Origin: a virus
Lineage: Duplodnaviria; Heunggongvirae; Uroviricota; Caudoviricetes
Direction: 5' to 3' (one strand)
IMG/VR virus record: IMGVR_UViG_640753025_000001
Span: 1-50,042 of that record
Length of the DNA: 50,042 bases
In this document: positions 1,369 through 49,574 of the stretch, in pieces
Layout of the letters: every line of letters begins with the position of its first letter
Numbering within the stretch: the first letter of the stretch is position 1
Notes under the pieces: generated by a model
The model's database searches: none
What the model was told of the DNA's origin: nothing
Seen by the model: the letters and a program-made list of their open reading frames with translations, nothing else
Program-made: the position numbers and the translations under genes

Positions 1369-1444
1369 GCCGATATAGCTCAGTTGGTAGAGCAGCGCAT
1401 TCGTAATGCGAAGGTCGTAGGTTCGACTCCTATTATCGGCACCA
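1369..1444 (+). tRNA. thrW: tRNA-Thr (anticodon CGU), thrW-type
   Basis: 76-nt sequence GCCGATATAGCTCAGTTGGTAGAGCAGCGCATTCGTAATGCGAAGGTCGTAGGTTCGACTCCTATTATCGGCACCA with encoded CCA end. Confidence 0.9.
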
Positions 1445-1447
1445 TTT
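1399..1447. repeat. attL core: 49-bp direct repeat covering the tRNA 3' end
   Basis: ATTCGTAATGCGAAGGTCGTAGGTTCGACTCCTATTATCGGCACCATTT is repeated exactly at 43256..43304; flanks diverge on both sides. Confidence 0.8.
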
Positions 1448-1458
1448 AAATCAATAAG

Positions 1459-12428: not shown

Positions 12429-12575
12429 ATGACAAAACAACTCAGTCCTTACCAGGACAAAATTCACAAACACATACTACGTGATCGCTTCCTGTCCAGC
12501 TTCAAGCAGCCTGGTCGATTCCGGGCTGAGTTGGAAAAAGTGAAGCTGATGCAGAAGGAGAAAGGTCATGAGTAA
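12429..12575 (+). CDS. small hypothetical protein (48 aa)
   Basis: ATG at 12429 after AGGAG; stop overlaps O start; below ORF-track cutoff. Confidence 0.4.
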
Positions 12576-13467
12576 CATATCTAATCTAGCCGAAGCCAGA
12601 GAGGCCAGAAGGCTACAACAACCGCATCAAAGCAGCGGTAAGGGGTATGCCTTGCTGCACCGTAAAATTATGGATGTGCCGTTTTACAAGGACGCAGAAG
12701 CAGCGCATCTGTGGGTTCACTTAATCCTCAAAGCAAAGCATACGCCTGAGTATGTAATGACTGACGCAGGAGAAATTCTGGTAGGCAGAGGGAAGCTACT
12801 TGGCGGTAGAAACTCTCTGGCGTTTGAAACAGGACTCAAACCAGATCGCGTTCAGTACCTGCTTAGAAAGTTCAAAAAACTCGGCATGATTGACTGGGTT
12901 TCACACGGTAAATTCTCAGTTTTCTCGGTAGAGAAATATGACGATTATCAGTCAAATTTTGTACCAGCAGATTACCAGCAAATTACCACCTCAAAGCCAG
13001 CAATACCATTGCCTGTAAGCAATACTGTACCAGCAGATTACCAGCAAATTACCACAGATAAAGAATATAATAATATTATCTCTAATACTGACGTATTAGA
13101 GAGTGCCACAGCAGACAAAAAGTCTGACAAGAAAAAACCTTCCGTCAGCTGTCAGGATGTAGTCGATGCTTACCACGAAATCCTTCCTGAAGCGCCAAGA
13201 ATCCGCGCACTGAATGACAAGCGTAAAAACCAGATCCGAACGTTCTGGCGCAAAGCCGGAGTGATAACCCGCCAGCTTGACGGGCATGGGTTCACGATGC
13301 AGGACTGGAGAAATTATTTGAGCTACGTAGGCGAAAATTGCCGATGGATGTTCGAAGAACGCCCAAACCATCAACGCGGAACCGTCTGGCACAAAAAGGG
13401 ATTTGATTTCCTGCTTAACGATAATACCTACCTGAAAGTTCGTGAGGGTGAACACGATGACCGATAA
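12568..13467 (+). CDS. replication initiator (O-like) with internal iterons
   Basis: 299-aa ORF immediately upstream of helicase; contains repeated peptide [10 protein letters not shown] from the DNA iterons. Confidence 0.75.
12961..13055 (+). repeat. origin iterons: two 29-bp direct repeats
   Basis: GTACCAGCAGATTACCAGCAAATTACCAC at 12961..12989 and 13027..13055, each with internal ATTACCA repeat, followed by AT-rich stretch. Confidence 0.55.
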
Positions 13468-31856: not shown

Positions 31857-33242
31857 ATGGCTACGTGGCAACAGGGTATTAATTCTGGTGGGTTTCTTGC
31901 TGGCATCGGTGCGCAAAATGAGAATGCGCCAAAGGCAAGCGACATTAACGCAACGCTTGGTCTGATCCGCGAAAACAATGAACTGGCTCGCTCAGGTGCA
32001 AATAACGTTGGTCTGACCGCGTTACGTGGTCTGGCTGGAGTTGCTGATATTTACAAGCAGGAACAGCAACAGAAAGCGATTAATGCGTTCAATAAGGTTC
32101 ATGCTGATGCATGGGCTTCTGGTGATCCATCGGGACTATTTAAGTTTGCCCAGGAAAATCCAGCGTTTGTTGCACAGGCACAACAGGCGTTTTCTGGTCT
32201 TAATGATCAGCAACGCAACGATATGGGCGATTTAGCCATGAGGGCTAACGTCGCTCTTTCTCAGGGACCGGAAGCCTACAGTAAATTCATTACTGACAAC
32301 AAGGACAGGTTAAATCGCGTTGGTGCTAATGCTGACTGGATGATTCAGACAGGTATCCAGAATCCAGAGCAGCTATCACACATGCTGACTACTATGTCTC
32401 TCGGTGCGCTTGGACCAGAAAAGGCGTTTGCTGTTCAGGATAAGATGGCTGGTCGTGAAATTGACCGAGGCAGGCTGGCAGAGACAATCCGCAGCAATCA
32501 GGCTGGCGAGGCACTTCAGGCGAGAGGGCAAAACCTTTCCTATCAGTCAGCAATGACTGGACACGGACTTGCAGCAGAAAGACTGGCACTTGATAAGCAG
32601 AAATTCGGTTTTGAAGTACAACAGGCACAAAAGAAGGCCGATGAACTTATTAATGCTGCGCCAAAACTATCCGTGAACATGGAAAAGGCTATAGAAAAAT
32701 CAGCAGGTGATGCGGCAGCTAGTCGTAATGCTGCCGATTCAATGACAACGCTTGCTGACACGCTTGAGAAGGAGAAGCCAACTCCTGGTTTGTTCGGTAA
32801 CGCTGAAAATATGTTCACTAAGCTTACGGGGCAAGATAACTACCTCCGAGATATGCGGATTAGATTCAACCAACTAGCCAATGCGCAGGCAACCAAGCTT
32901 CTCCCCCCCGGCCCTGCATCAGATAAGGATATTGAGTTTGCAAGGAAAGGCATTCCAAGCGAAACGGATAATCCAATGGTCATGGCTCGATGGTTAAGGG
33001 GTATGGCAAAAATGGAAAGTAATAACGCGAAGTTCAACGAGTTTAGGTCAGAGTGGATGAGTGCAAATGGCAGCCCAGGACAATCTGATCGCAACCGAAA
33101 CATCATGGGGATGGATGTTAAGAAGGGTGAATCATTGAACTCTGCGGCAAAACGTTTTCTTTCCTCAAGTTATGGCGATAGCCAACCTCAACAGCAATTG
33201 TCCGATGACGAATTAATTAGCAAATATCTCGGAGGGCAGTAA
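31857..33242 (+). CDS. ejection protein (P22 gp20-like)
   Basis: 461-aa ORF in gp20 position. Confidence 0.75.
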
Positions 33243-35068
33243 TGGCCTATAGTCGTGAACAGTTGATGACGGCGTTAAGGAATGCTGATGCTGCCGGCGA
33301 TACTGAGGGGGCACGTCGCATTGCTCAGATGCTGTCTTCTGGTGATCAATCCACTCAAAACCAATCGCAGCCAGAAGAACAATCTCTGGTGGGAAAAGCT
33401 ACTGACTGGCTCACTGGTGGTCAAAGTGCAGGGCAAATTGCAGAACAGGCTGGCCGTGGTCTGGTAAACATACCATTTGACGTATTGCAGGGTGGCGCAA
33501 GTCTGATTAATGCAATCAGCCAGGGTCTTGGTGGCCCCAAGGTTTTGGATGATGTTTATCGTCCAGTAGATCGACCAACAGACCCTTATGCGCAAGCTGG
33601 AGAAACAATTGGCGGGTATTTAGTTCCAGGAGTTGGAACGGCAGGAAGCATGGCTATTGGATCACTGGCAGAGGCCGCAAATCAGAAAGGCGATTTCGCA
33701 CAAAATGCAGCCAAAAATGCCGGAGTTAACCTTGCCGCTCAGGGTGTTCTTTCCGCAGCAGCAAAGGGAATAGGGCGTGGAATAACGGCTATAAAAGGTG
33801 ATATTGCGCCAGAAGTGGCGAAGAAAATTGCCACATCAGAATCGATGGGCGTGACACCAATGACATCTGATGTTATCCCGCCGAAAAATGCTTTCACTCG
33901 TGGCCTTACTCAGGATGCCGAGGGGGCTTTGCTCGGGACAGGCTCAAAGAGAGCGGAGCAATATGCAACGCGTAGTAAACTGGTAAGCAATTATTTTGAC
34001 CGTTTTGGTGAGTACAACCCTGATGATGTGGTGAAATCTCTTACCACCACGTTAAGGGGGCGGAAGGATGCCGCTGGCGCTGTTATCAATGACGTCACCA
34101 ATAAAATGGGTAATGCCGCAGTTGATACCACAAATACCATGAATGCTCTGAATACAGCGATCGCAAGACAGGAACGGCTTGGGACGTCTGCCAATCAAAG
34201 CCTGCTTACATCCTTGCGTAACCTACGTGAAGAATTAGCAAACCCTGCAACTGATTTGGATGTTACGTTTGATCTCTTGCGTCAGCACAGAACAGCATTT
34301 AGATCTAATGTTCAGGGAGATGCTATGGTCTTCCCCAACCAGGCAAAAGCAGCTACCAATATGGTAGAGAATGCAATGTCAAAAGACCTTCGTAACGCAG
34401 TTGCTAAAAACCTCGGTGCATCAGACGCAGCAAAATACCTTAAAGCAAATTCCGATTATGCAAACGTTTATAATAAGGTGCTTAATAAAAACATTGCCAA
34501 CAAGCTCAACAAGGCAAGCAGTGAAGCCAGTCCTGAACTTATAAATACCGTTGTATTAAGCAGAAAACCATCTGACGTGAAACGAATCTGGAGCGCACTG
34601 GATGATAAAGGGAAAGATGCTATGCGTGCAGCTTACGTCAGCAAAATAGCGGAAAAGGCCGGCGACTCTCCAGCCAAGTTCATCACTGAAGTTAATAAGC
34701 TGAAATCTCAGTCAGGAGGTGAAATTTACAACACTATTTTTTCTGGAAAGCACATGAAAGAACTTGATGCTCTTAATGAAGTTCTACAGCAAACAGCAAG
34801 GTCAGACACCGCAAATGTAGTAACTCAGACGGGGCAATCGCAAGCCAACAGGATAAGGACGATTGGCGCAACTGCGACTCTTGGCGTATCAATGGGGCTT
34901 GAGGCTGGTTTCGGTGCAATGATGCGCTTGTATGAGTCCAAAGCAGCAAGGAATGCGCTCTTACGTCTGGCAAACACTAAAGCTGGAACGCCAGCCTATG
35001 AAAGAGCGCTGAATAACGCCGCAAATGCCATCAGACCAATACTTGCCAATGATGCAACTGATCGCTAA
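33242..35068 (+). CDS. ejection protein (P22 gp16-like)
   Basis: 608-aa ORF in gp16 position. Confidence 0.8.
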
Positions 35069-35089
35069 GGGTTGATGTCATGGATGTTG

Positions 35090-35728
35090 TTAATTGCGAA
35101 TGGAATCGCGGAACTCTTTGCTTGATAGAAAAGGATCTGTTCTCCTTAACTCATCATAGTTTTTATTAAACTTTCTTGCTTCACCTGGGTATCTGTTGAA
35201 CAAAACATTGCAGAAAAAAGAGAGCAATAACTCACATATGAATGCTAATACCCTGAAAAATAAAGGTATAAAAAGAAGGGAAGGTTCATTGAAGTCTCTA
35301 TTCCAAACAAAATAGACAATCATCCCGACATACCAAATTGATATCCCTATACTGATGATTGTTCCAACAGAGGTAACTACGATCCCGATTAAGTCGGACA
35401 GTCTGTTTGCCAGTAACTCATTTGAGTATCTTGCAATCATATACCGCCAACATTTTGCAATATCATCCTGATCTGTAGAGTCTTCTGGAATAGCTAGGCT
35501 TCTACATATTGAAGTAGCTCTTTTTTTCTCAACTCTTTTTGAGATCCATCCATTAAAGAGATACATCAACACCTGCGTTGCTATTCCTGCACCAAGTGAT
35601 ATCAAAGACATCCCCAAAAATCTCCATCCTGGAGATAGTGACTGGTACTGCCAAACAAAAAAAATTAAAAAACCCAATGAGCCTATGACATAGGCTGATG
35701 TATCGCTATATATATCTATTTTTTTCAT
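35090..35728 (-). CDS. membrane protein in sieA position (putative superinfection exclusion)
   Basis: ATG at 35728 (MKKIDIYSD) after AAGGAG; about four hydrophobic segments; AT-rich gene between gp16 and the immI-like region. Confidence 0.55.
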   Translation of the reverse strand: MKKIDIYSDTSAYVIGSLGFLIFFVWQYQSLSPGWRFLGMSLISLGAGIATQVLMYLFNGWISKRVEKKRATSICRSLAIPEDSTDQDDIAKCWRYMIARYSNELLANRLSDLIGIVVTSVGTIISIGISIWYVGMIVYFVWNRDFNEPSLLFIPLFFRVLAFICELLLSFFCNVLFNRYPGEARKFNKNYDELRRTDPFLSSKEFRDSIRN

Positions 35729-35792
35729 TGAGTAGCCACTCCTTAGTTTTGAGCAGAACACCGGATGATAATGTGTCGCTTCCTAAAGGATA

Positions 35793-36434
35793 TCAAAGCA
35801 ACGGGATTTCAAGGTAAACTGCGGTTGCCAAAATACTAACATCTTCATTTCTAACAAGAATATTAGGATACATTGGGTTTAGGGATACTAAGTTTGTCTC
35901 TATTTCACCAATGTAAACCTGCTTGAAGCTCAATATTTGCTCTTTATCCAATGATGCTATTACATAATCTTTGCTTTTAGCTTTTACTAGAGGGCTGAAC
36001 GTGACAACTGATCCTCTGGGAAAGCTAATACCTGAACTTGTAGTCATAGCTTCACCTTCAATAGTCAATGCAAATGCAGAGTCACCAACATTGTATATTG
36101 CCGGATGAAATCTAGACGATGAATGTTCACCTGTGTTTAGGTAATGCATAACTTCATCTAGTTTGAGGATTGGTATTTGCTTTACCAGAACGTCAGGCAT
36201 GACGTTTTTTGTTCCAGGCCCCTGACCTTCACCCAGAGCTAACCACTCAGCCGTAGTGCCTAATGCGTTGGCTAATGCCTGCAATACACGAAGCCGTGGT
36301 TTAGCCTCACCACCCTCGTATGCAGCTATTTGACGTTGAACAACACCAGCTAATTTTGACAACTGCGCCTGCGTCATACCCCTGGACTGTCTTGCCAGAG
36401 ATACTCTTGATGGGAATTGATCGTCAAAATTCAT
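35793..36434 (-). CDS. second CI-like repressor (HTH + S24-like domain, Ser to Ala at nucleophile)
   Basis: 213 aa; HTH GMTQAQLSKLAGV; C-terminal domain aligns to CI/C2 but has GEAM (Ala129, codon 36048..36050) where CI/C2 have GNSM/GDSM. Confidence 0.8.
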   Translation of the reverse strand: MNFDDQFPSRVSLARQSRGMTQAQLSKLAGVVQRQIAAYEGGEAKPRLRVLQALANALGTTAEWLALGEGQGPGTKNVMPDVLVKQIPILKLDEVMHYLNTGEHSSSRFHPAIYNVGDSAFALTIEGEAMTTSSGISFPRGSVVTFSPLVKAKSKDYVIASLDKEQILSFKQVYIGEIETNLVSLNPMYPNILVRNEDVSILATAVYLEIPLL

Positions 36435-36455
36435 TAGTTCACCATAAAAAATTCA

Positions 36456-36484
36456 TTGACTCATACTGAGTGTGAGTGAATAAT
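36456..36484 (+). promoter_or_regulatory. Pant-like promoter for arc-ant operon
   Basis: TTGACT - 17 bp - AATAAT; spacer holds tandem TGAGTGTGAGTG. Confidence 0.5.
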
Positions 36485-36532
36485 CAAACTACAAAAAGTG
36501 AGATTATGAGTTTTTCAAAAACAGGAGTGCAT

Positions 36533-36706
36533 AATGACTGAAAAGATATCTTCCATCAAGCCGCGTCAGGTTCGTTTTACAGAAAAGGTTGATTCACATA
36601 TCCGCGAATCAGCAAAAAGATGCCATAGGTCAATTCAGGCAGAGATAGCTTATCGAATGGAGTTATTGATGAAACTTGAGGCAAAGGGCGATGTTGTCAT
36701 CCAATA
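36533..36706 (+). CDS. arc: Arc-like ribbon-helix-helix repressor
   Basis: 57 aa; RQVRFTEKVDSHIRESAKRCHRSIQAEIAYRM fits Arc/Mnt pattern; below ORF-track cutoff. Confidence 0.65.
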
Positions 36707-36780
36707 AAAATAGTGAAGCCCGGCAGTGCGCGAACACAAACCGGGCCTCTATGTCAGTAACCGTATGCAAGGAAACTAAC

Positions 36781-37407
36781 ATGAATATTGTAGCAAAATC
36801 AGATTACAACTTCCACGGAGTTGAGTTGGTGCCCACCCGTGATATGCATGGTGTTTGGTTTACATCATCTAATATTGCATCTGCACTTAAATATGCAAAT
36901 AGCCGTGCAGTAACAATGATTTATAACAAGTATAGCGATGAGTTTAGCGCCGGAATGACTCAGGTACTCGAAGTGAGTACCTCAGGAAATTATCGCAAAA
37001 AAGTGCGAGTTTTCTCACTACGCGGTGCCCACCTAATCGCGATGTTTGCTCGCACTCCGGTAGCCAAAGAGTTCCGCCGCTGGGTGCTGGATATTTTGGA
37101 TCGGCAGGCAGAATGCTCACCGATTGCAAAACAGTTTACTGACGAAGAACTGGTTAATCTCTGCTACTTACAATTGTGGATGGAGAAGAGTCAACAAATG
37201 TGCAAACACATCTACCCAGGAATGAAGCAAATTGGTTCTGAGCTTTCAGGAAGAATTTACGATATTGCATATGAGACTCGCTATATGTCAGAAGAAACCA
37301 AGAAATCACTTCTTCGTGAAATGAAGAATCTTGATACCAACAATTTTGTCGTAAAGAACGCTCAGCCAATGCTGACAAAACTGCGCGGCGAGGAATGGAT
37401 TCATTGA
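36781..37407 (+). CDS. ant: antirepressor (Bro-N domain)
   Basis: ATG at 36781 after AAGGAA; N-terminal domain (HGVELVPTRDMHGVWFTS...) resembles phage antirepressor N-domain. Confidence 0.7.
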   Translation: MNIVAKSDYNFHGVELVPTRDMHGVWFTSSNIASALKYANSRAVTMIYNKYSDEFSAGMTQVLEVSTSGNYRKKVRVFSLRGAHLIAMFARTPVAKEFRRWVLDILDRQAECSPIAKQFTDEELVNLCYLQLWMEKSQQMCKHIYPGMKQIGSELSGRIYDIAYETRYMSEETKKSLLREMKNLDTNNFVVKNAQPMLTKLRGEEWIH

Positions 37408-38143
37408 TTGGTGCGCCGGACGGCGCAAAAAGAAAACCGCCAGTGTGCTGCTGGCGGCCTATGTCACACCCTTACTACCACATAAGGAATGCCTAATGAC
37501 TTTGAAGAATGTAGCAAACATCGGATCCGTTGTCACGGATAAAACCATTGACAGCCAAAGTCTTCTGATGATGGTTAATGAAGCTCGCAAGTTATGTGGA
37601 GAGCCATCAGTACGTAACAACAAATTCATCGAGAAAATTGAGGATGAATTGGAGGGCGAGACCTACACAAAAAGTGTAGGTCGGAAAAACGGGGCTGACA
37701 TTGATGTTATCTCCATGACTATCAAGCAGGCGCTTCGTGTTGCTGCTCGCGAATCTAAAGCAGTTCGCCGAACACTTGTAGACAAACTTGAAAGTATGCA
37801 AGAAGCGCACATTAAAAGCGGTAAATCGTCGAGTGGACTTGTTGAGTATCGCCAGGCTCGAACATTGAAAATGACGGTTGAAGCTGTTACCAATCTGTTA
37901 GATTTGATGCCAAATCTTGCGCCGGAAGCAAAGCAGACTGCGGCAGCAAGCATAATCAACCCGATAGTTGGTTTTAATGCAATACCTCTTCCAGCAATAG
38001 AAGAGCATTACTACTCAGCAGGGGAGGTTGCAGAGCAGCTTGGAGTAACGGCAAACAAGATTGGTCGCATTGCTAACGCAAACAACTGAATCGCCACGGG
38101 TTTAACAGACACCTCAGAGTCATTTAAGATGGCTTAAAGAGAG

Positions 38144-38484: not shown

Positions 38485-39297
38485 GTGCTGGATGTTCATC
38501 CCAGTGGTTTTTACGCCTGGCTTCAGCAGCCGCATTCACAACGCCATCAGGCAGACCTGAGACTGACAGGACAGATTAAACAGTTCTGGCTGGAATCGGG
38601 ATGCGTCTATGGTTATCGCAAAATCCATCTGGATTTGCGTGACAGCGGGCAACAGTGCGGAGTAAACAGAGTCTGGAGACTGATGAAACGTGTCGGAATA
38701 AAGGCTCAGGTCGGATACCGAAGCCCGCGGGCACGTAAAGGCGAGGCCAGTATCGTGTCACCCAACAGGCTCCAGCGACAGTTCAATCCGGATGCTCCTG
38801 ATGAGCGTTGGGTAACGGACATAACCTACATCAGGACCCACGAAGGCTGGCTGTATCTTGCCGTTGTTGTTGATCTGTTCTCACGCAAAATTATCGGCTG
38901 GTCCATGCAATCCCGGATGACAAAGGACATTGTCCTGAACGCACTGCTGATGGCTGTATGGCGGCGTAATCCCGAAAAACAGGTGCTGGTTCATTCGGAT
39001 CAGGGCAGTCAGTACACAAGCCATGAGTGGCAGTCGTTCCTGAAATCACACGGCCTGGAGGGTAGCATGAGCCGTCGCGGTAACTGCCATGATAATGCGG
39101 TTGCAGAAAGTTTTTTCCAGTTGTTGAAACGTGAACGGATAAAGAAAAAGATCTACGGAACGCGGGAAGAAGCCCGCAGTGATATTTTTGATTACATCGA
39201 AATGTTTTATAACAGTAAGCGTCGGCATGGTTCTAGCGAACAGATGTCACCGACAGAATATGAAAACCAGTATTATCAACGGCTCGGAAGTGTCTAG
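38485..39297 (+). CDS. IS3-family transposase OrfB
   Basis: Identical protein to 6667..7479. Confidence 0.9.
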   Translation: MLDVHPSGFYAWLQQPHSQRHQADLRLTGQIKQFWLESGCVYGYRKIHLDLRDSGQQCGVNRVWRLMKRVGIKAQVGYRSPRARKGEASIVSPNRLQRQFNPDAPDERWVTDITYIRTHEGWLYLAVVVDLFSRKIIGWSMQSRMTKDIVLNALLMAVWRRNPEKQVLVHSDQGSQYTSHEWQSFLKSHGLEGSMSRRGNCHDNAVAESFFQLLKRERIKKKIYGTREEARSDIFDYIEMFYNSKRRHGSSEQMSPTEYENQYYQRLGSV

Positions 39298-39867: not shown

Positions 39868-41778
39868 ATGACTGACACCAATTACCTGATCTCTATGCCG
39901 TCTACACCTTTTTCGGCGCCACGAGCATTTAAATCAGTGGCGAACGGGAAAATCTATATCGGAAACCCTGACACTGACCCGGTAAATCCTGCTAACCAAA
40001 TTCCGGTATATGCCGTTAATGAGAATGGATCCGAGGTTCAGGTTTCTCAGCCAATCATCATTAACGCTGGAGGCTTCCCTGTTTATAACGGGCAGATTAT
40101 GAAGTTCATCACCAAACAGAACTTCAGCATGGCGGTGTATGATGCATATGGGGCGCAGCAGTTTTACTGGATTAATGTTGCAAATATGGACCCAAACTCT
40201 GCGTATCTGGAAGCGGTTAATGATGTTCTTGCAATGCTGGGCTCAAGCGATGGCGCAAAACTGATAGGTGGAATGAGCTTTCTTACAGCGGAAATGTACT
40301 CTCATCTTGTTGAAGGGATGGACTGGAGGAAAGCAATTCAAGCTGCTATAGACCAAGCTCACCAGAACTATTTAGCCGGAAGCGGCCCAACCAATATTCT
40401 CATTGGAGGTGAATTCTCCGTTACTCTCAATCCTAATTCAACTTTGATACCTGGTGAGGTTGCTGCGGGTCGAGGTGCGCTGTGTATGCGTAGTGGTGTA
40501 ACACTGATGGGCGGCGGAGCAATCACGCTTGATGGCAATTTTACTGGCTCAGCCAGCGGCGCAATCATTACAAACTGGGAAGGCGCCGCCGATAACTGCA
40601 AGATTCAGGGGATCACGCTTAACGGCAGCCGTGGCACCGCTGCCGGAACGGGGATTACCTGCATTAATATCTTGGACTCGGATAATGTCACTATTGATAA
40701 CGTTAAGGCGATAGATAGCACTTCTGGAGGGATTTATTTACGCCGAGCTAACAATACGGTTTATGGCTGTTCTAACTCAAGAATTATGAACTGCTACGTT
40801 CACAACGTTGAATATATTGGCATTCAGTGTGAACGCCCCAACGGGATGACCATTACGGGATGTGCCGTAGCCTCCTGCGGTGATAATGGCATTGATATCT
40901 TTGGTAACGTAACTGACGAATCTGGACAGGGAGTTGCGGAGGATGTTGTTGTTAGTAATAACACTATCCGTGATGTAAGCGTAGGAGTGTTCATCGAATC
41001 ATGCGGAAACGTGGCAATATCTTCGTGCCGTATTTCAGGATTTAGTAACTCTGGTGTTTTCTTTAACCGGATAAATACAGCTGCGTATAATTGTTCTGTA
41101 ATTGGATGCACGATAACAGGGGCGGATATTACCTCCAGCCAGGGCATCCGCTGGAAGAATGCAGTTGGTTACACTCGCGTTTATAACAACACACTAAAAA
41201 ACTGTATTGACTCCTTTGTGACAACTGGAGGGATGATTTACGTTGATATTGGGGTGAATAACCATGAAAGCATTGGCAGGTGTTTTCTTTACGTTCCCAA
41301 AAAATCTAACGGATGTGTCTATACAAGAATGGTTCAGCAGGTCTACAACGGAGTTCAGACAGATGGCATACCGTACAACACGACACCTCGTGGTTGGCCA
41401 TCCGCAAACAACACTAGGTACTATCGCTGTTCATTCACCGCGCCGTACATGATGTATTCCGCTACGACTGGGGAAGATAACCTCATTCGGGCTACAGGCA
41501 ATTTGCCATTCAACAGTGGCTGGGGGCCTGCTTACTCGCTATACAATACGATTGTTTCTGGAGAAACAGTAATAGCCATGGGGAGCTCGCTACTGTCTGC
41601 CGGTGAATACATGCTAATAAACGGTTATTATTATTTAGTTTATAGCGTCACATCATCCTATGCTGTAGTAAGGAAATGGGATGTATCCAGTCAGGACTAT
41701 ATTGCCGGAGACTACACATCTTATTTAAATAGCGCATACGCATATTCCATCTTCAGAGCTGCTTGGGGAACACTATGA
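39868..41778 (+). CDS. tailspike protein (P22-type head-binding domain + divergent receptor-binding domain)
   Basis: 636 aa; N-terminal ~110 aa (FKSVANGKIYIGNPDTDPVNPANQIPVY) collinear with P22 gp9; remainder Gly/Asn/Ser/Thr-rich with repeated short strands. Confidence 0.88.
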   Translation: MTDTNYLISMPSTPFSAPRAFKSVANGKIYIGNPDTDPVNPANQIPVYAVNENGSEVQVSQPIIINAGGFPVYNGQIMKFITKQNFSMAVYDAYGAQQFYWINVANMDPNSAYLEAVNDVLAMLGSSDGAKLIGGMSFLTAEMYSHLVEGMDWRKAIQAAIDQAHQNYLAGSGPTNILIGGEFSVTLNPNSTLIPGEVAAGRGALCMRSGVTLMGGGAITLDGNFTGSASGAIITNWEGAADNCKIQGITLNGSRGTAAGTGITCINILDSDNVTIDNVKAIDSTSGGIYLRRANNTVYGCSNSRIMNCYVHNVEYIGIQCERPNGMTITGCAVASCGDNGIDIFGNVTDESGQGVAEDVVVSNNTIRDVSVGVFIESCGNVAISSCRISGFSNSGVFFNRINTAAYNCSVIGCTITGADITSSQGIRWKNAVGYTRVYNNTLKNCIDSFVTTGGMIYVDIGVNNHESIGRCFLYVPKKSNGCVYTRMVQQVYNGVQTDGIPYNTTPRGWPSANNTRYYRCSFTAPYMMYSATTGEDNLIRATGNLPFNSGWGPAYSLYNTIVSGETVIAMGSSLLSAGEYMLINGYYYLVYSVTSSYAVVRKWDVSSQDYIAGDYTSYLNSAYAYSIFRAAWGTL

Positions 41779-43255: not shown

Positions 43256-43304
43256 ATTCGTAATGCGAAGGTCGTAGGTTCGACTCCTATTATCGGCACC
43301 ATTT
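43256..43304. repeat. attR core: 49-bp direct repeat (displaced 3' part of thrW)
   Basis: Exact copy of 1399..1447. Confidence 0.8.
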
Positions 43305-43464
43305 CAAACTCTTCCCAAGTCTACCGAAATCAACTAAAAGCTCGTATACTGCGGTTTCTGGCCCGTATCTTATCTCCTGTTATCAACTAGACTCAACCGA
43401 AATCAAGTCGCAGTTGGGGGCATAAGTGGGGGCATTTTGTGTTCGGTCTAGGGAGATGCCCCCA

Positions 43465-44673
43465 ATGAAACTTAATGCGCGACAGGTAGACGCAGCTAAA
43501 CCCAGAGAGAAAGCCTATAAGCTGGCAGATGGTGCTGGTTTGTATCTTGAGGTTGTTCCCTCTGGTTCCAGATACTGGCGGATGAAATATCGCTTCAATG
43601 GAAAAGAGAAGCGTATGGCCTTTGGTGTCTATCCGGCAGTGTCCCTTGCACAAGCGAGGGCACTGCGTGACGACGCCAAGAAAAAGCTTGCCGAAGGTAT
43701 CGATCCATCGCTTGCCAAGAAAGAAGAAAAGCTGGTTCGAGATGTGCAGCTAAATAATACGTTTCAGGCTGTGGCACTTGAATGGCATGGAACGAAGGTG
43801 AGCCGATGGTCAGAAGGTTATGCCTCGGACATTATCGAAGCCTTTAATAAAGATATTTTTCCCTATATTGGCCAACAACCGGTGAATGAAATCAAACCGC
43901 TGGTTCTGCTTAATGTGCTGCGTCGAATTGAAAGCCGTGGCGCGACAGAGAAGGCCAAGAAGGTTCGCCAGCGTTGCAGCGAAGTCTTTCGTTACGCCAT
44001 CGTAACCGGTCGTGCGGAATACAATCCTGCAGCGGATCTTACCAGCGCGATGTCAGGGCATGAATCGAAGCATTATCCCTTCCTTACTGTTGAGGAGTTA
44101 CCAGACTTTTTTAAAGCTCTCGCAGGCTACACAGGAAGCCCGTTAGTTGTTCTTGCGGCACGTCTGCTGATCCTCACGGGAGTTCGCACTGGCGAACTCC
44201 GAGGTGCTTTCTGGAGTGAGTTTGATCTTGAAAAAGCGGTGTGGGAGATACCTGCCGAGCGTATGAAGATGAAACGGCCTCACCTTGTCCCCCTCTCTAC
44301 CCAAGCGCTGGAAATCGTACAGCAACTCAAAGTGATGTCAGGGCAATATCCACTGGTGTTCCCGGGACGTAATGATCCCCGCAAGACGATGAGTGAAGCG
44401 AGTATTAATCAGGTTTTTAAGCGGATTGGATATACGGGGAGGGTAACGGGGCATGGTTTCCGTCACACGATGAGTACGATTTTGCATGAGGAAGGTTTCA
44501 ATACAGCGTGGATTGAAACCCAGCTGGCTCACGTTGATAAAAATGCGATTCGTGGGACGTATAACCATGCGTTGTATTTGGAAGGACGTAGGGAGATGAT
44601 GCAGTGGTATGCGGACTATATAAACGCTAATCATAATTCATGTATTTCTTTGCTGGTGAACGCTACAAAGTAG
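43465..44673 (+). CDS. int: tyrosine integrase, P4 type
   Basis: ATG at 43465 after GGGAGA; catalytic HGFRHT and RGTYNHALY regions; begins 160 bp after the tRNA 3' repeat, reading away from it. Confidence 0.9.
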   Translation: MKLNARQVDAAKPREKAYKLADGAGLYLEVVPSGSRYWRMKYRFNGKEKRMAFGVYPAVSLAQARALRDDAKKKLAEGIDPSLAKKEEKLVRDVQLNNTFQAVALEWHGTKVSRWSEGYASDIIEAFNKDIFPYIGQQPVNEIKPLVLLNVLRRIESRGATEKAKKVRQRCSEVFRYAIVTGRAEYNPAADLTSAMSGHESKHYPFLTVEELPDFFKALAGYTGSPLVVLAARLLILTGVRTGELRGAFWSEFDLEKAVWEIPAERMKMKRPHLVPLSTQALEIVQQLKVMSGQYPLVFPGRNDPRKTMSEASINQVFKRIGYTGRVTGHGFRHTMSTILHEEGFNTAWIETQLAHVDKNAIRGTYNHALYLEGRREMMQWYADYINANHNSCISLLVNATK

Positions 44674-44914
44674 ATTTGACGTGATGATAGGATTGATTAG
44701 GAAAATGACCTAAAACCGTATATTTTGATACTTAAGTTTAAACATTAGCCCTATATCCGATCGCCCTTTGTTACCTACACTTCTATCTTTTTTAGGTTCT
44801 AGGGCTGAAAGATTTGAAGATAAGTTTATAAATATCAATAGATTACATGATTGTGTTGGTTCTTGGGTAGCCGTAACGCCTAGGGCGGTAGCGTACTTAA
44901 GATGAGTATAAAAA

Positions 44915-46123
44915 ATGAACAGTAACTATATGCCATTCACACAACGAGATAGTCTCGGAAGATACTATACAAAAGAATCCATAAGTGCATTATTGGTTTC
45001 TCAGATGAAAGCTGAAAAAGTCAATAATATTATTGATTTAGCTTCTGGTGAGGGGAGCTTAACCTATGCTGCTTTAGACCGATGGAAGAATGCAGAAGCA
45101 TATTCTTTGGATATAGAATCTCGGATGTCAAAAAAAGTATGTGATAATCTTACTCATATTGTAACAGATGCCCTTGTTCATTCATTTCCTGAAATGCTTG
45201 CCCGACATCAAGGAAATTTTGATGTTGCAGTATGTAATCCTCCATTCACTCTCCCTGAATGGAGGGATGATTATTTTAAAATCATTAGTGAGATTGGCGC
45301 AGATAAATATATATCTGTCTCAAAATATGTCCCAGCAGAGATAATATTTATATCTCAAGTCATCAGGTTTCTTAAAAAGGGCGGTGAGGCTGGAATAATT
45401 TTACCTGATGGTATATTTACAGCAAGAAAGTTTATAGGTTTAAGACGATATTTATTGAATGAACATTCAATTACAAAAGTCATTGAATTGCCTAGGAATA
45501 TCTTCAAAAGGACAGAGGCTAAAACACATATTTTAATTTTTAATAAAAAAATTATGCCTCATCATAAAATACAATTACATTGTATAACTAAAGATGGGGA
45601 ATTGTCGCCTCCTGTTTTAATTAGAAAAGAAGATGCGGTTGAGAGAATGGACTACTCTTATCATTATAATAAAAATGAAGGTAAAGGGTTTAGCACAATA
45701 GGGATGCTTAAAAATATTTCAATTTTTAGAGGTAGGTTTAATTCAAAGGAAATTACGGAACATGTTTTTCATACGACAAAATTTAGTGGTGATGAAAAGT
45801 ACATTAAATTCCACTGCAACTCTGTAGAAGAATTGAAGCCATCAAAATTAGATGTCATTGCTAAGCCTGGTGATATATTAATAGCAAGAGTTGGGCGAAA
45901 TTTTCATAAAAAAATATTGTTTGTTGAGAGCGGCTATTCTTATATCAGTGACTGTATTTTTCTGATACGAGCCTCTGGTGGAGATAAGAAAAAACTATTT
46001 GATTTTCTTTGTTCTCAAGATGGGCAAGAGGAATTATCTCGAGCGAGTAGTGGTGTAGCCGCACAACATATTACAATGGATGCATTAAAAAAAATACATC
46101 TTGTAAGGATTAAACATGACTGA
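44915..46123 (+). CDS. N6-adenine DNA methyltransferase, gamma class
   Basis: 402 aa; GRYYTKESI (motif X-like), IIDLASGEGSLT (AdoMet motif I), CNPPF (motif IV, 45236..45247); ~160-aa C-terminal putative recognition domain; AT-rich. Confidence 0.8.
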   Translation: MNSNYMPFTQRDSLGRYYTKESISALLVSQMKAEKVNNIIDLASGEGSLTYAALDRWKNAEAYSLDIESRMSKKVCDNLTHIVTDALVHSFPEMLARHQGNFDVAVCNPPFTLPEWRDDYFKIISEIGADKYISVSKYVPAEIIFISQVIRFLKKGGEAGIILPDGIFTARKFIGLRRYLLNEHSITKVIELPRNIFKRTEAKTHILIFNKKIMPHHKIQLHCITKDGELSPPVLIRKEDAVERMDYSYHYNKNEGKGFSTIGMLKNISIFRGRFNSKEITEHVFHTTKFSGDEKYIKFHCNSVEELKPSKLDVIAKPGDILIARVGRNFHKKILFVESGYSYISDCIFLIRASGGDKKKLFDFLCSQDGQEELSRASSGVAAQHITMDALKKIHLVRIKHD

Positions 46124-47822
46124 TGTGGAATTAGATAGTAATTTTCTTATCGAGGAACGAGCTGATTATATTGATGAGGATACGATAAAAAATAATACTA
46201 TCAGATCTGGAGAGTTTTTCGATATTATACATAATGCTCTTATATCCCCAGGCATCAAACTTATAGTTGGTCCTAGGGGATGTGGTAAAACACATTTGAT
46301 GCGTTATGCTTGGGTTGAATGTAAAAACGATGATAACGCACCATTACCACTCTATGTTTCTTTTAATAAATATTTTAAGTTAGAGCCGCTTTTAAAAAAT
46401 AAACCAAATGCAATTGATCTCTTTCATAAATGGGTATTAGCAAAGATACTACTCTCTGCTTATGAAATTGCTTGCGATATTGAAGATTCTGAATATCTTG
46501 ATTTGTCAACGATACTCATAGCGGATAAAGAGTTCCTAATTAATTTAATCGTAAGGCTTGAGCAGGGTCTTTCGCCATCATTAGAACAAGAAAACATTGT
46601 TCAATTGATCAGTGTTTCTTCTGTCATATCCTCGTTGAGTTCACTATGTGATTGGCTTGAACGTAAAAGAGTCATTATTTTATTAGACGATGCAGCAATA
46701 AGCTTAACTCCTGAATATCTTTACGAGTTTTTTGATATTGTACGTAGTCTAAAAACCTCAAAAATAGCTTTAAAGGCATCGGTTTATCCTGGAACAACCG
46801 AATATGGCCCAAGGTTTCATGTTGCTCATGATGCTGAAACAATTGATGCTTGGATTTCGGTACAGCACCCTAATTATTCCTCAGTGATGGATGCTATAGC
46901 GCAGGCAAGGTTTCCTGGGTATGATGGCATTCCGGATGACTTGAAAGAGTTATTTAAATTCTCAGCATTTGGTATTCCACGTTCTTTTTTGATGATGTTA
47001 AGAGATTATCAAACAACTTTAAGTCAGACAACTCAGCAAAAATTTAATAAAATAATTGAAAGGTATGTTGAGCTTAGACTCAGCGAATACAGTTCACTAA
47101 AAGATAAGCTACCTCGATTGTTTGACATTGTTTCATTAGGTGAATCACTTTTATTAAAAGTAGTCGAATTACTCAAGGAAAGTAACTCCCAATATAAAGA
47201 AGAGAAACAAGTCATAATCGGTATAGAGAAAAATGATAATGTTTATTTTTCTCGACTCACTAAGCTATTAATTGAAACAGGGCTTTTTTATAATCTTCCT
47301 GATATTTCTCATGGTGATGGGCGTACTTATGAAAGATATATACCTCATTATGCTTTATTAATAAAGGAAAGAGTGTTTAACGAAGGAAGTAGAGGTTTTT
47401 CTCCTTCTCAGATTATTCAAAAAATACTAAGAAAGAATGCTAAGCATCCTGTCAGAAGAAACATTTCATCATTATTCAATGCTGAGCAACTTGCGAGACT
47501 TAAACTAACTTTACCTCCATGCAATAACTGCAAGACTCCGCGATTGACTGACAATCAAAAATTTTGCCATCATTGTGGGAATCAATTGATTGATGAGTCG
47601 GCCTATAATCAGTGCATGTCTATTCCACTGTCAAAAGTACCACATCTAACATCTTGGCAAATGCAAAAACTATCTGGGCTGGAAAAAGTAAAAACTATAG
47701 GAGATGTATTGTCTTTACAAGACCCTGGGAGTGAGTTAAGAAAAATTCACAGAATAGGACCCAAAATTGCCAATAAAATTATGGACAAAGTGTTATTACA
47801 TGTTGAAGAGTTTTTGTCTTAA
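46116..47822 (+). CDS. P-loop ATPase with C-terminal zinc ribbon and helix-hairpin-helix
   Basis: 568 aa; Walker A GPRGCGKTH (46269..46295), Walker B-like VIILLDDA, CNNCKTP...CHHCGNQL (from ~47519), HhH IHRIGPKIANKI; start overlaps MTase stop. Confidence 0.7.
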   Translation: MTDVELDSNFLIEERADYIDEDTIKNNTIRSGEFFDIIHNALISPGIKLIVGPRGCGKTHLMRYAWVECKNDDNAPLPLYVSFNKYFKLEPLLKNKPNAIDLFHKWVLAKILLSAYEIACDIEDSEYLDLSTILIADKEFLINLIVRLEQGLSPSLEQENIVQLISVSSVISSLSSLCDWLERKRVIILLDDAAISLTPEYLYEFFDIVRSLKTSKIALKASVYPGTTEYGPRFHVAHDAETIDAWISVQHPNYSSVMDAIAQARFPGYDGIPDDLKELFKFSAFGIPRSFLMMLRDYQTTLSQTTQQKFNKIIERYVELRLSEYSSLKDKLPRLFDIVSLGESLLLKVVELLKESNSQYKEEKQVIIGIEKNDNVYFSRLTKLLIETGLFYNLPDISHGDGRTYERYIPHYALLIKERVFNEGSRGFSPSQIIQKILRKNAKHPVRRNISSLFNAEQLARLKLTLPPCNNCKTPRLTDNQKFCHHCGNQLIDESAYNQCMSIPLSKVPHLTSWQMQKLSGLEKVKTIGDVLSLQDPGSELRKIHRIGPKIANKIMDKVLLHVEEFLS

Positions 47823-47892
47823 TTTTGATGGCATGTACTTGTCAATCGTGTCTTTCTTATCTGAAAAGTTTAATTTAAAAAGAGTCGGGAAA

Positions 47893-48870
47893 ATGGAACT
47901 AGAATCAAAAGAGGATTATGAAGAGACCACTCATCATAATGTGGCGTCCTCAGTTGTCACTGCAACCCATGATAACTTAGATGGAAGAGAGTTTTTTGAA
48001 CTATGTAGTAATCCAGCTCTAGTTTTTTCGTTTGAGACACACAAAAAATTTAATGAGTTACCTGTTGATAGCAAGGAATCCCCGTTAGATCTTTTTATAG
48101 CTAATACAAAGCAACTTCACTTGTTAAGATCTGGTGATATTTCAAACACATTAAGCCATCTGTTGTTATTAGGTTATGTGTCTGCAGCCGAAAGTTATTT
48201 GCGAGCTCTTATCAGAAATCTAATTAATCATGATGAATATATACAGTCTATAGTTTCTGATAAGGCCGTTAGTTATGCAGCGGCACAACACCATAAAAAG
48301 GAGTTATTACCAGAAGCTTTACTTGAGGACTTTTCATTGGCAAGCCCTTATAATGTTTTTGAAACATTAAAGGACATTATTGGAATGAAAGGACAACGAC
48401 CAATCGAAATGATGAAATGCTCAAGCGAATTCATGAAAGTTTGCGAGTTAAGGCATTGTTGTGTTCATCGATTTGGTAAGTTGGGTTCGAAAAATGCAAT
48501 CCGACTAGGATTGGCTGAACATATGAAGCACTTAGAAAAACCGATAATACTCAATAATGATGATCTCGAGCAAATCGCATTTATTGTTGAGAATTTTATT
48601 AGAACTTTGAATAATACCGTTTTCAAATTTATAATTAATCGTACAGTTGAGAACAAAAATAAGGAAAAAGGAGGGGAAAGACTATATGATTCTGAATGGA
48701 CATGGGTGTTTGAAAAAGATATAAGTCGATACGAAAAGTATTATTCAATATTTAGTGCCAAAAACGATACCCTTCCCGGATTATCATTACAGGATTCATA
48801 TCAACTTTTTGTTAATGCATATAAGCCTAAACTTCCTGCAAGAAAAAATAAAAAAACTGAAGAAAATTAA
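47893..48870 (+). CDS. hypothetical protein with Rx4H (HEPN-like) motif
   Basis: 325 aa from ATG 47893; RHCCVH at 48451..48468; AT-rich; alternative in-frame starts at 47767 and 47833. Confidence 0.5.
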   Translation: MELESKEDYEETTHHNVASSVVTATHDNLDGREFFELCSNPALVFSFETHKKFNELPVDSKESPLDLFIANTKQLHLLRSGDISNTLSHLLLLGYVSAAESYLRALIRNLINHDEYIQSIVSDKAVSYAAAQHHKKELLPEALLEDFSLASPYNVFETLKDIIGMKGQRPIEMMKCSSEFMKVCELRHCCVHRFGKLGSKNAIRLGLAEHMKHLEKPIILNNDDLEQIAFIVENFIRTLNNTVFKFIINRTVENKNKEKGGERLYDSEWTWVFEKDISRYEKYYSIFSAKNDTLPGLSLQDSYQLFVNAYKPKLPARKNKKTEEN

Positions 48871-49070
48871 CGCCACTACTATCTGAAAATATTAGTAATT
48901 TTTACTTGAAATGGCAGGGCGTTATTTTTTTTGATTGAATATGGGTAATGTTAAATATCTAATCATTTGAAACTTCTAGCTATATTAATAAATGTAATGT
49001 GTGAATGATGATGGTGCTTGCTTTAACTATAGATTGTTATTCCATATAGAAATTAGGTAATGACTCCAAC

Positions 49071-49574
49071 TTATTGATAGTGTTTTATGTTCAGATAATG
49101 CCCGATGACCTTGTCATGCAGCTCCACCGATTTTGAGAACGACAGTGACTTCCGTCCCAGCCTTGCCAGATGTTGTCTCAGATTCAGATTATGTCGCTCA
49201 ATGCGCTGAGTGTAACGCTTGCTGATAACGTGCAGCTTTCCCTTCAGGCGTGATTCATACAGCGGCCAGCCATCCGTCATCCATACCACGACCTCAAAGG
49301 CCGACAGCAGGCTCAGAAGACGCTCCAGTGTGGCCAGAGTGCGTTCACCGAAGACGTGCGCCACAACCGTCCTCCGTATCCTGTCATACGCGTAAAACAG
49401 CCAGCGCTGACGTGATTTAGCACCGACGTAGCCCCACTGTTCGTCCATTTCAGCGCAGACAATCACATCACTGCCCGGTTGTATGCGCGAGGTTACCGAC
49501 TGCGGCCTGAGTTTTTTAAGTGACGTAAAACCGTGTTGAGGCCAACGCCCATAATGCGTGCACTGGCGCGACAT
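49071..49574 (-). CDS. insB: IS1 InsB (expressed as InsAB' by frameshift)
   Basis: 167-aa ORF recognised as IS1 InsB. Confidence 0.9.

What the first reader, a model, noticed from the sequence alone, without database searches (positions are those of the whole stretch)
35090..35728. AT-rich membrane protein in the sieA position
A ~212-aa protein with about four hydrophobic segments lies on the opposite strand between the gp16 ejection gene and the immI-like region, where P22 carries the superinfection-exclusion gene sieA. The gene is much more AT-rich than its neighbours, typical of a horizontally acquired moron. It is expressed from the lysogen side.
Basis: partly seen in the sequence, partly recalled or inferred. 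Interest (0 to 1): 0.45.

Follow-up and report, generated by a model that had tools for sequence, protein, structure and literature searches.

The report
Known SieA exclusion gene of prophage HS1

Summary
The ORF is real: 35090-35728, minus strand, 212 aa, four hydrophobic segments. Its GC is 36.3%, against 49.7% for the long prophage genes. It lies between the gp16-like ejection gene and an immI-like region, in a 41.9-kb P22-like prophage integrated at thrW.

It is a true but distant homologue of P22 SieA: 28% identity, PHROG "SieA-like" E=6.5e-21, and an exact FxRYPxEAxxFNK motif.

The DNA is 100% identical to the E. coli HS chromosome. Leavitt et al. 2024 (mBio, PMC10883804) cloned the HS1 prophage sieA gene ("type B SieA") with 106 bp of upstream DNA into Salmonella. 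It fully excluded P22, L, MG40, MG178, LP7 and three ejection-protein hybrids.

Verdict: observation confirmed, interpretation supported, already known.

- A 24-nt leader containing the Shine-Dalgarno site is shared with P22 sieA and with two unrelated cargo genes in the same slot. This marks a cassette-exchange joint.
- SieA belongs to a much wider family of small membrane proteins. Their conserved NRxSD and GRYPG(E/Q)A motifs are predicted to face the cytoplasm.
- Many family members lie in non-phage contexts in Beta- and Gammaproteobacteria.

The parts
35090..35728 (-). sieA (type B) coding sequence, 212 aa. Four predicted TM helices with N- and C-termini in the cytoplasm. Conserved NRLSD (108-112) and FNRYPGEARKFNK (177-189) lie at the cytoplasmic ends of TM3 and TM4.
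   Evidence: ORF. Homology to P22 SieA. Hydropathy, positive-inside loops and motif. AF2 model, pLDDT 75. 100% identity to E. coli HS. Published function of HS1 sieA (PMC10883804).
35739..35762 (-). Conserved 24-nt leader GGTGTTCTGCTCAAAACTAAGGAG, ending in the Shine-Dalgarno site AAGGAG (35744-35739). It is shared with P22 sieA and with unrelated cargo genes in the same slot, so it is a probable recombination joint of the cassette.
   Evidence: Sequence. Five-way alignment of HS1, UTAK-8, Z0117EC0117, 980-2 and P22.
35768..35796 (-). Promoter-like site: TTGATA, 17 nt, CATTAT. The -35 hexamer overlaps the stop codon of the upstream gene and aligns with the -35 (TTGGTA) of the annotated P22 PsieA. 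It lies inside the 106 bp that sufficed for function in the published construct.
   Evidence: Consensus scan, 9/12 match. The region's count of such sites is not above chance. Alignment to the P22 upstream region. Construct description in PMC10883804. This assignment is inferred, not demonstrated.
33242..35068 (+). gp16-like ejection (DNA transfer) protein gene, convergent with sieA with 21 nt between the stop codons. Context only. In incoming phages, gp16 is one of the two proteins where SieA-escape mutations map.
   Evidence: PHROG 770, E=4e-263. RefSeq 'DNA transfer protein'. PMC10883804.
31857..33242 (+). gp20-like ejection protein gene (context).
   Evidence: RefSeq 'DNA transfer protein', with gene order as in P22.
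35793..36434 (-). Upstream neighbour on the same strand: a 213-aa HTH_3 + Peptidase_S24-like (CI-like) protein in the place where P22 has mnt. It is divergent from the arc-like/ant genes. sieA starts 64 nt downstream of its stop codon, and no terminator was predicted between them, so read-through transcription into sieA is possible.
   Evidence: Pfam. Terminator scan. Alignment to lambda CI.
1399..1450 (+). attL of prophage HS1, at the 3' end of thrW (tRNA-Thr CGT, 1369-1444). proA lies at 1-1254.
43256..43307 (+). attR: a 52-nt direct repeat of attL (51/52 identical). Together they bound a 41.9-kb prophage that contains sieA.

Best explanation
This is the sieA gene of the P22-like prophage HS1 of E. 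coli HS, a 'type B' SieA.

The gene is probably transcribed in the lysogen from its own weak promoter just upstream, and possibly also by read-through from the repressor-like gene above it. Both points are inferred.

Its product is a four-helix inner-membrane protein with both termini in the cytoplasm (predicted). When a P22-like phage adsorbs, SieA prevents the ejected proteins gp20 and gp16 from forming or operating the DNA conduit across the periplasm and inner membrane. The superinfecting DNA therefore never reaches the cytoplasm.

The evidence differs by step:
- Exclusion by this very gene is shown experimentally, by plaque assays in Salmonella.
- Inner-membrane location, the block of K+ release and DNA entry, and escape mutations in the C-terminal parts of gp16 and gp20 are shown for the P22 homologue only. 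They are inferred here by homology and by the identical exclusion spectrum.

The gene is an AT-rich, self-contained cassette (moron). It sits at a conserved exchange site between gene 16 and the immI region.
For: Sequence identity with the tested gene:
- Window 34900-36500 is 100% identical to the E. coli HS chromosome, and the gene occurs once there.
- The prophage sits at thrW next to proA. This fits the low locus-tag number EcHS_A0321 given in the paper.

Published experiment (PMC10883804):
- HS1 sieA plus 106 bp upstream, in single copy in Salmonella galK, reduced P22 from 5e10 to below 1e4 PFU/mL.
- It fully excluded L, MG40, MG178, LP7 and hybrids carrying L, Sf6 or CUS-3 ejection proteins.
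- The HK620 hybrid escaped partially (about 10% plating efficiency).

Homology to P22 SieA.

Type-B hallmarks described in the paper are found here:
- An N-terminal extension of about 30 aa (HS1 residue 44 aligns with P22 residue 14).
- An extra TM segment.
- The exact FxRYPxEAxxFNK motif.

Topology: loops 60-111 and 178-212 carry 10 and 9 Lys+Arg. The two short loops 29-36 and 143-149 carry 1 each.

Cassette behaviour and shared leader. AT-richness extends to third codon positions.
Against: - Nothing in the sequence contradicts this reading.
- I could not retrieve CP000802 itself. The equation with EcHS_A0321 therefore rests on 100% identity to two other HS assemblies, single copy, and map position.
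- The published assay was in Salmonella, not in E. coli HS against its natural phages.
- In that construct the gene lay in the gal operon orientation, so the own-promoter claim is not proven.
- The promoter-like site is only a 9/12 match, and such sites are not enriched in the region.
- How SieA recognises highly divergent gp16/gp20 proteins is unresolved in the paper itself.
Confidence: 0.95

Rival explanations
1. Same protein and same phenotype, but an indirect mechanism. SieA does not recognise the variable ejection proteins. Instead it uses its conserved cytoplasm-facing motifs (NRxSD, GRYPGEA) to bind or disable a conserved host inner-membrane or cytoplasmic factor that the P22-type ejectosome needs. 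The gp16/gp20 escape mutations would then bypass that factor.
For: - Conservation is concentrated on the predicted cytoplasmic face. Across 99 family members, N108, R109, D112, R179 and P181 are 95-100% conserved and A184 is 85% conserved. The predicted periplasmic loops are only 7-8 residues long.
- Two SieAs that are 24-28% identical give the same exclusion spectrum against phages whose gp16 proteins are 22-26% identical. The authors call this hard to explain by direct binding.
- Relatives with the same motifs occur in non-phage contexts in other proteobacteria.
Against: - Escape mutations map to gp16 and gp20, and high multiplicity of infection partly overcomes exclusion. The authors read both as direct titration.
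- gp16 is itself membrane-inserted and could contact the TM helices or cytoplasmic face of SieA directly.
- No host partner is known.
Confidence: 0.15
2. The protein's natural role in E. coli HS is something other than exclusion, such as membrane homeostasis, another lysogenic-conversion trait or abortive infection. On this view the exclusion seen in Salmonella is a side effect.
For: - Distant relatives are encoded among housekeeping genes: NAD synthase, KdsB-like, IlvD, a TonB receptor and TauD.
- Some relatives are fused to protease, Sel1 or DnaJ domains.
- Every database record calls the protein 'hypothetical'.
Against: - Exclusion was by at least six orders of magnitude from a single chromosomal copy, with no added inducer.
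- The gene keeps the sieA position, leader and motif of P22 sieA. The natural exclusion role of P22 sieA is classical.
- In the paper, SieA did not affect other phage types or the growth of the host.
Confidence: 0.03
3. The ORF is a chance open frame in AT-rich spacer DNA, not a gene.
For: None beyond its atypical composition.
Against: - There are 189 member sequences in its 90%-identity cluster, from E. coli, Salmonella and Klebsiella.
- Homologues at 53-82% identity show conserved motifs and substitution patterns.
- There is significant homology to P22 SieA.
- A functional experiment exists.
Confidence: 0.01

Closest known systems
Prophage HS1 SieA (type B), E. coli HS locus EcHS_A0321; Leavitt et al., mBio 2024 (PMC10883804)
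   Same: It is the same gene. The DNA is 100% identical to the HS chromosome. It is single copy, lies between genes 16 and 9 of the thrW-integrated P22-like prophage, and shows the type-B N-terminal extension and the motif.
   Different: Nothing detected. RefSeq and other databases still label it 'hypothetical protein'.
Phage P22 SieA (type A, 162/164 aa)
   Same: - Homologous: 28% identity over 148 aa.
- Same position and orientation next to gene 16.
- Same AT-richness (GC 0.337).
- Same leader and Shine-Dalgarno sequence, and the same C-terminal motif.
- Same three core TM segments.
- Same published exclusion spectrum.
   Different: - HS1 SieA has about 30 extra N-terminal residues forming a fourth TM helix, and about 16 extra C-terminal residues.
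- Its upstream neighbour is a CI-like HTH/S24 gene rather than orf59a/mnt.
Phage HK97 gp15 and phage T4 Imm (inner-membrane proteins that block DNA entry of superinfecting phage)
   Same: They work alike in outline. Each is a small phage-encoded inner-membrane protein that blocks genome translocation after adsorption. This comparison rests on established knowledge, not on a test made here.
   Different: No sequence or fold relationship was seen. PHROGs gave only the SieA-like family, and Foldseek against viral and PDB structures gave nothing significant. The target machinery differs: tape measure/PtsG for HK97, against the gp7/gp20/gp16 ejectosome here.
Uncharacterised ~170-aa three-TM proteins of Beta- and Gammaproteobacteria with NRxSD and LTGRYPG(E/Q)A motifs
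   Same: - Significant homology: phmmer E down to 1e-12 against 1.8 billion proteins, 23-31% identity, similar to the level between HS1 and P22 SieA.
- Same TM layout and same two motifs.
   Different: - They are not next to P22-like virion genes. Their neighbours are mostly housekeeping genes.
- The motif reads (T)GRYPG(E/Q)AxxxRK rather than F(G/N)RYPGEAxxFNK.
- Their function is unknown.

Membership tests
SieA superinfection-exclusion proteins of P22-like phages (types A/B/C of Leavitt et al. 2024) | Detectable sequence homology to P22 SieA | tested here: met
   BLASTP gives 28% identity over 148 aa, E=8e-25 pairwise. tblastn against 50,697 phage records gives E=1e-11, and all 38 matching records are Salmonella/Enterobacteria P22-like phages; where the feature under the match is named it is sieA/superinfection exclusion. 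PHROG 7745 scores E=6.5e-21.
SieA superinfection-exclusion proteins of P22-like phages (types A/B/C of Leavitt et al. 2024) | Conserved motif FxRYPxEAxxFNK near the C-terminus, on the cytoplasmic side | tested here: met
   FNRYPGEARKFNK lies at residues 177-189, immediately after the last TM segment. The tail is rich in Lys/Arg.
SieA superinfection-exclusion proteins of P22-like phages (types A/B/C of Leavitt et al. 2024) | Gene located between the homologues of P22 genes 16 and 9 in a P22-like (pro)phage, on the strand opposite to the late operon | tested here: met
   The gp16-like gene is at 33242-35068 (+), sieA at 35090-35728 (-), and the tailspike gene at 39868-41778 (+). The prophage is bounded by att repeats at thrW.
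SieA superinfection-exclusion proteins of P22-like phages (types A/B/C of Leavitt et al. 2024) | Integral membrane protein with three core TM segments. Type B adds an N-terminal extension of about 30 aa with one more TM segment. | tested here: met
   There are four hydrophobic segments. HS1 residue 44 aligns with P22 residue 14. AF2 helices are 6-25, 33-78, 105-143 and 149-177. This is prediction only.
SieA superinfection-exclusion proteins of P22-like phages (types A/B/C of Leavitt et al. 2024) | Localisation in the inner (not outer) membrane | not testable with these tools
   Shown by fractionation for FLAG-tagged P22 SieA only (PMC10883804). Inferred here.
SieA superinfection-exclusion proteins of P22-like phages (types A/B/C of Leavitt et al. 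2024) | Expression alone blocks infection (DNA injection) by P22-like phages and not by other phage types | not testable with these tools
   Published for HS1 sieA by plaque assays (PMC10883804, Table 4 and text). DNA-entry and K+ assays and the test against other phage types were done with P22 SieA.
SLATT (SMODS and SLOG-associating 2TM effector) domains | Significant sequence or fold similarity to SLATT families | tested here: not met
   SLATT proteins appear four times among the Foldseek BFVD hits, but with E of 2.4 to 6.4 and probability 0.15 or less. There is no Pfam SLATT hit at E<=0.1. Fused relatives carry Trypsin_2, Sel1 or DnaJ domains, not SMODS/SLOG.

The most novel reading that the evidence does not exclude
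SieA is a phage-captured branch of a widespread proteobacterial family of small inner-membrane proteins. Their only strongly conserved residues (NRxSD, GRYPG(E/Q)A) are predicted to face the cytoplasm. Exclusion would then work through a conserved host partner or a general membrane-gate function, not through direct recognition of the hypervariable ejection proteins. The chromosomal relatives could be unrecognised anti-injection defence genes. The gene16-immI slot, with its conserved leader, could be a general docking site for such cargo, including the 62-aa and roughly 125-aa alternatives seen here.
Probability: 0.15. Interest if true: 0.5.

Novelty: already known. Interest (0 to 1): 0.12.

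Why it matters
For the scan, this is a positive control. A reader working from sequence alone correctly identified a superinfection-exclusion gene from position, membrane character and composition.

Biologically, the gene's function was published in 2024. Its main practical value is annotation: RefSeq and every other source still call it 'hypothetical protein'.

Three side observations could help with the open question the authors raise, namely how very different SieAs block very different ejection proteins:
- the shared leader at a cargo-exchange slot;
- conservation that is confined to the predicted cytoplasmic side;
- a much wider family outside phages.

None of these changes the verdict.

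Tried and rejected
- The local Pfam-A, NCBIfam and PADLOC libraries gave no hit for the protein. The big protein collection does carry a precomputed PF26849.1 for all close homologues, but I could not look up what that family is.
- I built an AF2 model from 11 type-B sequences (pLDDT 75, pTM 0.56). Foldseek searches against BFVD and PDB returned nothing at E<=0.001. A sequence search of PDB found nothing at or below E=0.65 (five chlorophyll a-b binding protein chains at E=0.65-0.82). The recurrent weak SLATT hits were rejected as not significant.
- The upstream in-frame GTG at 35761 (223 aa) was rejected as the start codon. It lies in the conserved leader and has no Shine-Dalgarno site.
- The terminator scan found no convincing terminator between the repressor-like gene and sieA, or after sieA. 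The listed stem-loops lie inside coding sequence.
- A related-loci scan with a 60-sequence superfamily alignment failed because no stretch was conserved enough. It was repeated with 18 closer sequences.
- The 2026 bioRxiv preprint on the P22 translocation channel mentions SieA but could not be opened.
- The 122-aa protein occupying the slot in strain Z0117EC0117 was checked and is unrelated to SieA.

Full report
**Observation**

The ORF is present as described. It runs 35090-35728 on the minus strand, with an ATG start, and encodes 212 aa. The mechanical ORF extends to an in-frame GTG at 35761.

The ATG is the likely start for three reasons:
- AAGGAG lies 10 nt upstream of it.
- RefSeq annotates 212 aa.
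- The GTG lies in a leader that is conserved upstream of unrelated genes.

Hydropathy shows four hydrophobic segments, at about residues 10-28, 37-59, 110-143 and 148-178.

The gene's GC is 0.363 and its GC3 is 0.352. Fourteen long prophage ORFs average GC 0.497 +/- 0.021 and GC3 0.507 +/- 0.06. The AT-richness is therefore real and is not only an effect of amino-acid composition.

The gene is convergent with the gp16-like ejection gene (33242-35068 +; PHROG 770, E=4e-263). Upstream of it lies an immI-like set:
- an HTH_3 + Peptidase_S24-like protein, 35793-36434 (-);
- an Arc-like 57-aa protein, 36534-36707 (+);
- Ant, with Bro-N + P22_AR_C domains, 36781-37407 (+);
- a second antirepressor, cut by an IS3-family element.

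**Where the window comes from**

The window starts with proA (1-1254) and thrW (tRNA-Thr CGT, 1369-1444), followed by an integrase gene. A 52-nt direct repeat at 1399-1450 and 43256-43307 bounds a 41.9-kb P22-like prophage.

Region 34900-36500 is 100% identical to the chromosome of E. coli strain HS in two assemblies. The gene occurs once in that genome.

**Identity**

The protein is a distant but clear homologue of P22 SieA:
- PHROG 7745 'superinfection exclusion SieA-like', E=6.5e-21.
- tblastn against phage records finds only Salmonella/Enterobacteria P22-like phages, and the named features under the matches are sieA/superinfection exclusion, at 27.7% identity and E=1e-11.
- Pairwise BLASTP gives 28% identity over 148 residues.

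Leavitt et al. [quoted passage not shown] They name the SieA of prophage HS1 of E. coli HS (EcHS_A0321) as the type B example. The type B features they list are all found here:
- an N-terminal extension of about 30 aa (HS1 residue 44 aligns with P22 residue 14);
- an additional TM segment;
- the motif FxRYPxEAxxFNK, which reads FNRYPGEARKFNK at residues 177-189.

They cloned this gene with 106 bp of upstream DNA into Salmonella galK. It fully excluded P22, L, MG40, MG178 and LP7, and P22 hybrids carrying the L, Sf6 or CUS-3 ejection proteins. The HK620 hybrid plated at about 10%.

I could not open CP000802 itself. The identification rests on 100% identity to HS, single copy, and the thrW map position, which fits the low locus-tag number.

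**Anatomy and topology (predicted)**

Lys+Arg counts per loop are:

| Region | Residues | Lys+Arg |
|---|---|---|
| N-terminus | 1-10 | 2 |
| Loop | 29-36 | 1 |
| Loop | 60-111 | 10 |
| Loop | 143-149 | 1 |
| C-tail | 178-212 | 9 |

This gives an N-in, C-in, four-TM topology with two very short periplasmic loops.

AlphaFold2, run with 11 type-B sequences, gives an all-helical model (pLDDT 75, pTM 0.56). Its helices are 6-25, 33-78, 87-101, 105-143, 149-177, 181-197 and 204-211.

Within type B, sequence conservation is highest in the cytoplasmic loop (KCWRYMIARYS, NRLSD), in the C-tail, and in the short loop LSPGWRF.

No structural relative was found in BFVD or PDB, and no sequence relative in PDB.

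**Expression signals and cassette nature**

A promoter-like site (TTGATA, 17 nt, CATTAT; 35796-35768) lies inside the 106 bp used in the published construct. It is only a 9/12 match, and such sites are not enriched in the region.

Aligning the upstream regions gave two results:
- The -35 hexamer lines up with the -35 hexamer (TTGGTA) of the annotated P22 PsieA.
- A 24-nt leader ending in the Shine-Dalgarno site, GGT(G/A)T(T/C)CTGC(T/A)(C/A)AAAACTAAGGAG, is nearly identical in HS1 and P22. This holds even though the two proteins are only 28% identical.

The same leader precedes different cargo in other E. coli prophages:
- In strain UTAK-8 the slot, between the same flanking gene types (a gp16-like gene and an identical HTH/S24 gene), holds only an unannotated 62-aa hydrophobic ORF.
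- In Z0117EC0117 it holds an unrelated protein of about 125 aa with a signal-peptide-like N-terminus.
- In strain 980-2 the same sieA lies next to an Arc/Mnt-type remnant instead of the HTH/S24 gene.

All of these cargos are AT-rich. This is the behaviour of a moron cassette at a fixed exchange joint.

The type B gene is rare. It is present in 20 of 5426 complete E. coli genomes, and every copy is annotated 'hypothetical protein'. The 90%-identity cluster has 189 members, from E. coli, Salmonella and Klebsiella. Type-B homologues down to 53% identity occur in Salmonella, Yersinia and Serratia.

**Mechanism**

Shown for this gene: exclusion of P22-like phages from a single chromosomal copy.

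Shown for P22 SieA, and inferred here:
- exclusive inner-membrane location;
- a block of K+ release and of DNA entry;
- no effect on other phage types;

The best-supported model is that SieA in the inner membrane interferes with assembly or function of the gp20/gp16 conduit.

My analysis adds one point. The residues conserved across the whole superfamily (N108, R109, D112, R179, P181, A184) sit at the cytoplasmic ends of TM3 and TM4. Almost nothing is exposed to the periplasm. This points to an interaction within the bilayer or at the cytoplasmic face, most plausibly with membrane-inserted gp16. An indirect route through a host factor remains possible (rival 1).

**Wider family (side result)**

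An exhaustive phmmer search found 127 cluster representatives (50% identity) at E<=1e-3. Most are 160-180 aa, and 115 of them also match P22 SieA.

They share NRxSD and (T/F)(G/N)RYPG(E/Q)A. A few are fused to Trypsin_2, Sel1 or DnaJ domains.

Eighteen loci were recovered from GTDB genomes: Polaromonas, Variovorax, Pseudomonas, Methylophilaceae, Moritella and others.
- HS1 SieA matches all 18 at 21-31% identity.
- No P22-like virion gene lies within 6 kb of any of them.
- The neighbours tested are NAD synthase, a KdsB-like cytidylyltransferase, IlvD, a TonB-dependent receptor and TauD. One locus carries a primase/DUF3987 gene.

The 2024 paper reported sieA-like genes only in P22-like prophages of nine enterobacterial genera, so this breadth appears not to have been described there. 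The function of these relatives is unknown.

**Comparison and verdict**

The gene meets every SieA membership feature that can be tested by sequence. The functional features are covered by publication for this exact gene. It is already known. Interest is low for the finding itself, and the side observations are modest leads.

Noticed in passing
window 35793-36434 (-): In the place where P22 has mnt, divergent from arc-like/ant, there is a 213-aa CI-like protein (HTH_3 + Peptidase_S24). In the alignment to lambda CI, the catalytic serine motif GNSM reads GEAM (Ser149 becomes Ala), while the lysine region (FKK becomes FKQ) is kept. The S24 domain may therefore be a non-cleaving dimerisation module, giving an SOS-insensitive maintenance repressor for ant. 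The identical protein (WP_001008290.1) occurs in other E. coli prophages with or without sieA.
   Followed up: partly
L021 741-929 (-) (E. coli UTAK-8) and L022 789-1157 (-) (E. coli Z0117EC0117): These are alternative cargo genes in the sieA slot, behind the same leader and Shine-Dalgarno site. One is an unannotated 62-aa hydrophobic ORF. The other is an unrelated protein of about 125 aa with a signal-peptide-like start when read from the upstream GTG. Both are AT-rich and of unknown function.
   Followed up: partly
L003-L020 (GTDB genomes); proteins P0027-P0153: A SieA-like superfamily (NRxSD + GRYPG(E/Q)A motifs, about 170 aa) is widespread in Beta- and Gammaproteobacteria. Its members lie among housekeeping genes and are not in P22-like prophages. 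Some are fused to Trypsin_2, Sel1 or DnaJ domains.
   Followed up: partly
window 6269-~7480 and 38087-~39297: There are two identical copies of an IS3-family element inside the prophage (ORFB at 6667-7479 and 38485-39297). The second truncates the second antirepressor gene (37496-38089; a pseudogene in RefSeq). The prophage may be defective.
   Followed up: no
window 43426-49574: Immediately beyond attR lies a second, P4-type integrase gene (43426-44673), followed by very low-GC cargo (about 0.30):
- a type II N6-adenine methyltransferase, 44915-46123 (PADLOC MTase_II, E=8e-237);
- an ORC/CDC6-like ATPase, 46116-47822;
- an unknown 367-aa protein, 47767-48870;
- an IS1 transposase, 49071-49574.
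This is a tandem island at thrW and a possible defence cassette.
   Followed up: partly
window 12955-12989 and 13021-13055: There are two 35-nt direct repeats, 66 nt apart (AAT..TGTACCAGCAGATTACCAGCAAATTACCAC), inside the ORF 12568-13467. They look like iterons of a lambdoid replication origin within the initiator gene.
   Followed up: no
NZ_CP146561.1 and NZ_CP146567.1 (E. coli B1.H1.18 / B1.H1.1, 39.9-kb 'plasmids'): The type B sieA gene (99.7% identical) lies on two 39.9-kb records filed as plasmids. Their size suggests circularised P22-like phage genomes rather than plasmids.
   Followed up: no
window 35090-35728 (-) and its homologues: The large protein collection lists a precomputed Pfam family PF26849.1 for all type-B homologues. 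The local Pfam-A copy gives no hit for this protein, so the family's name could not be checked.
   Followed up: no
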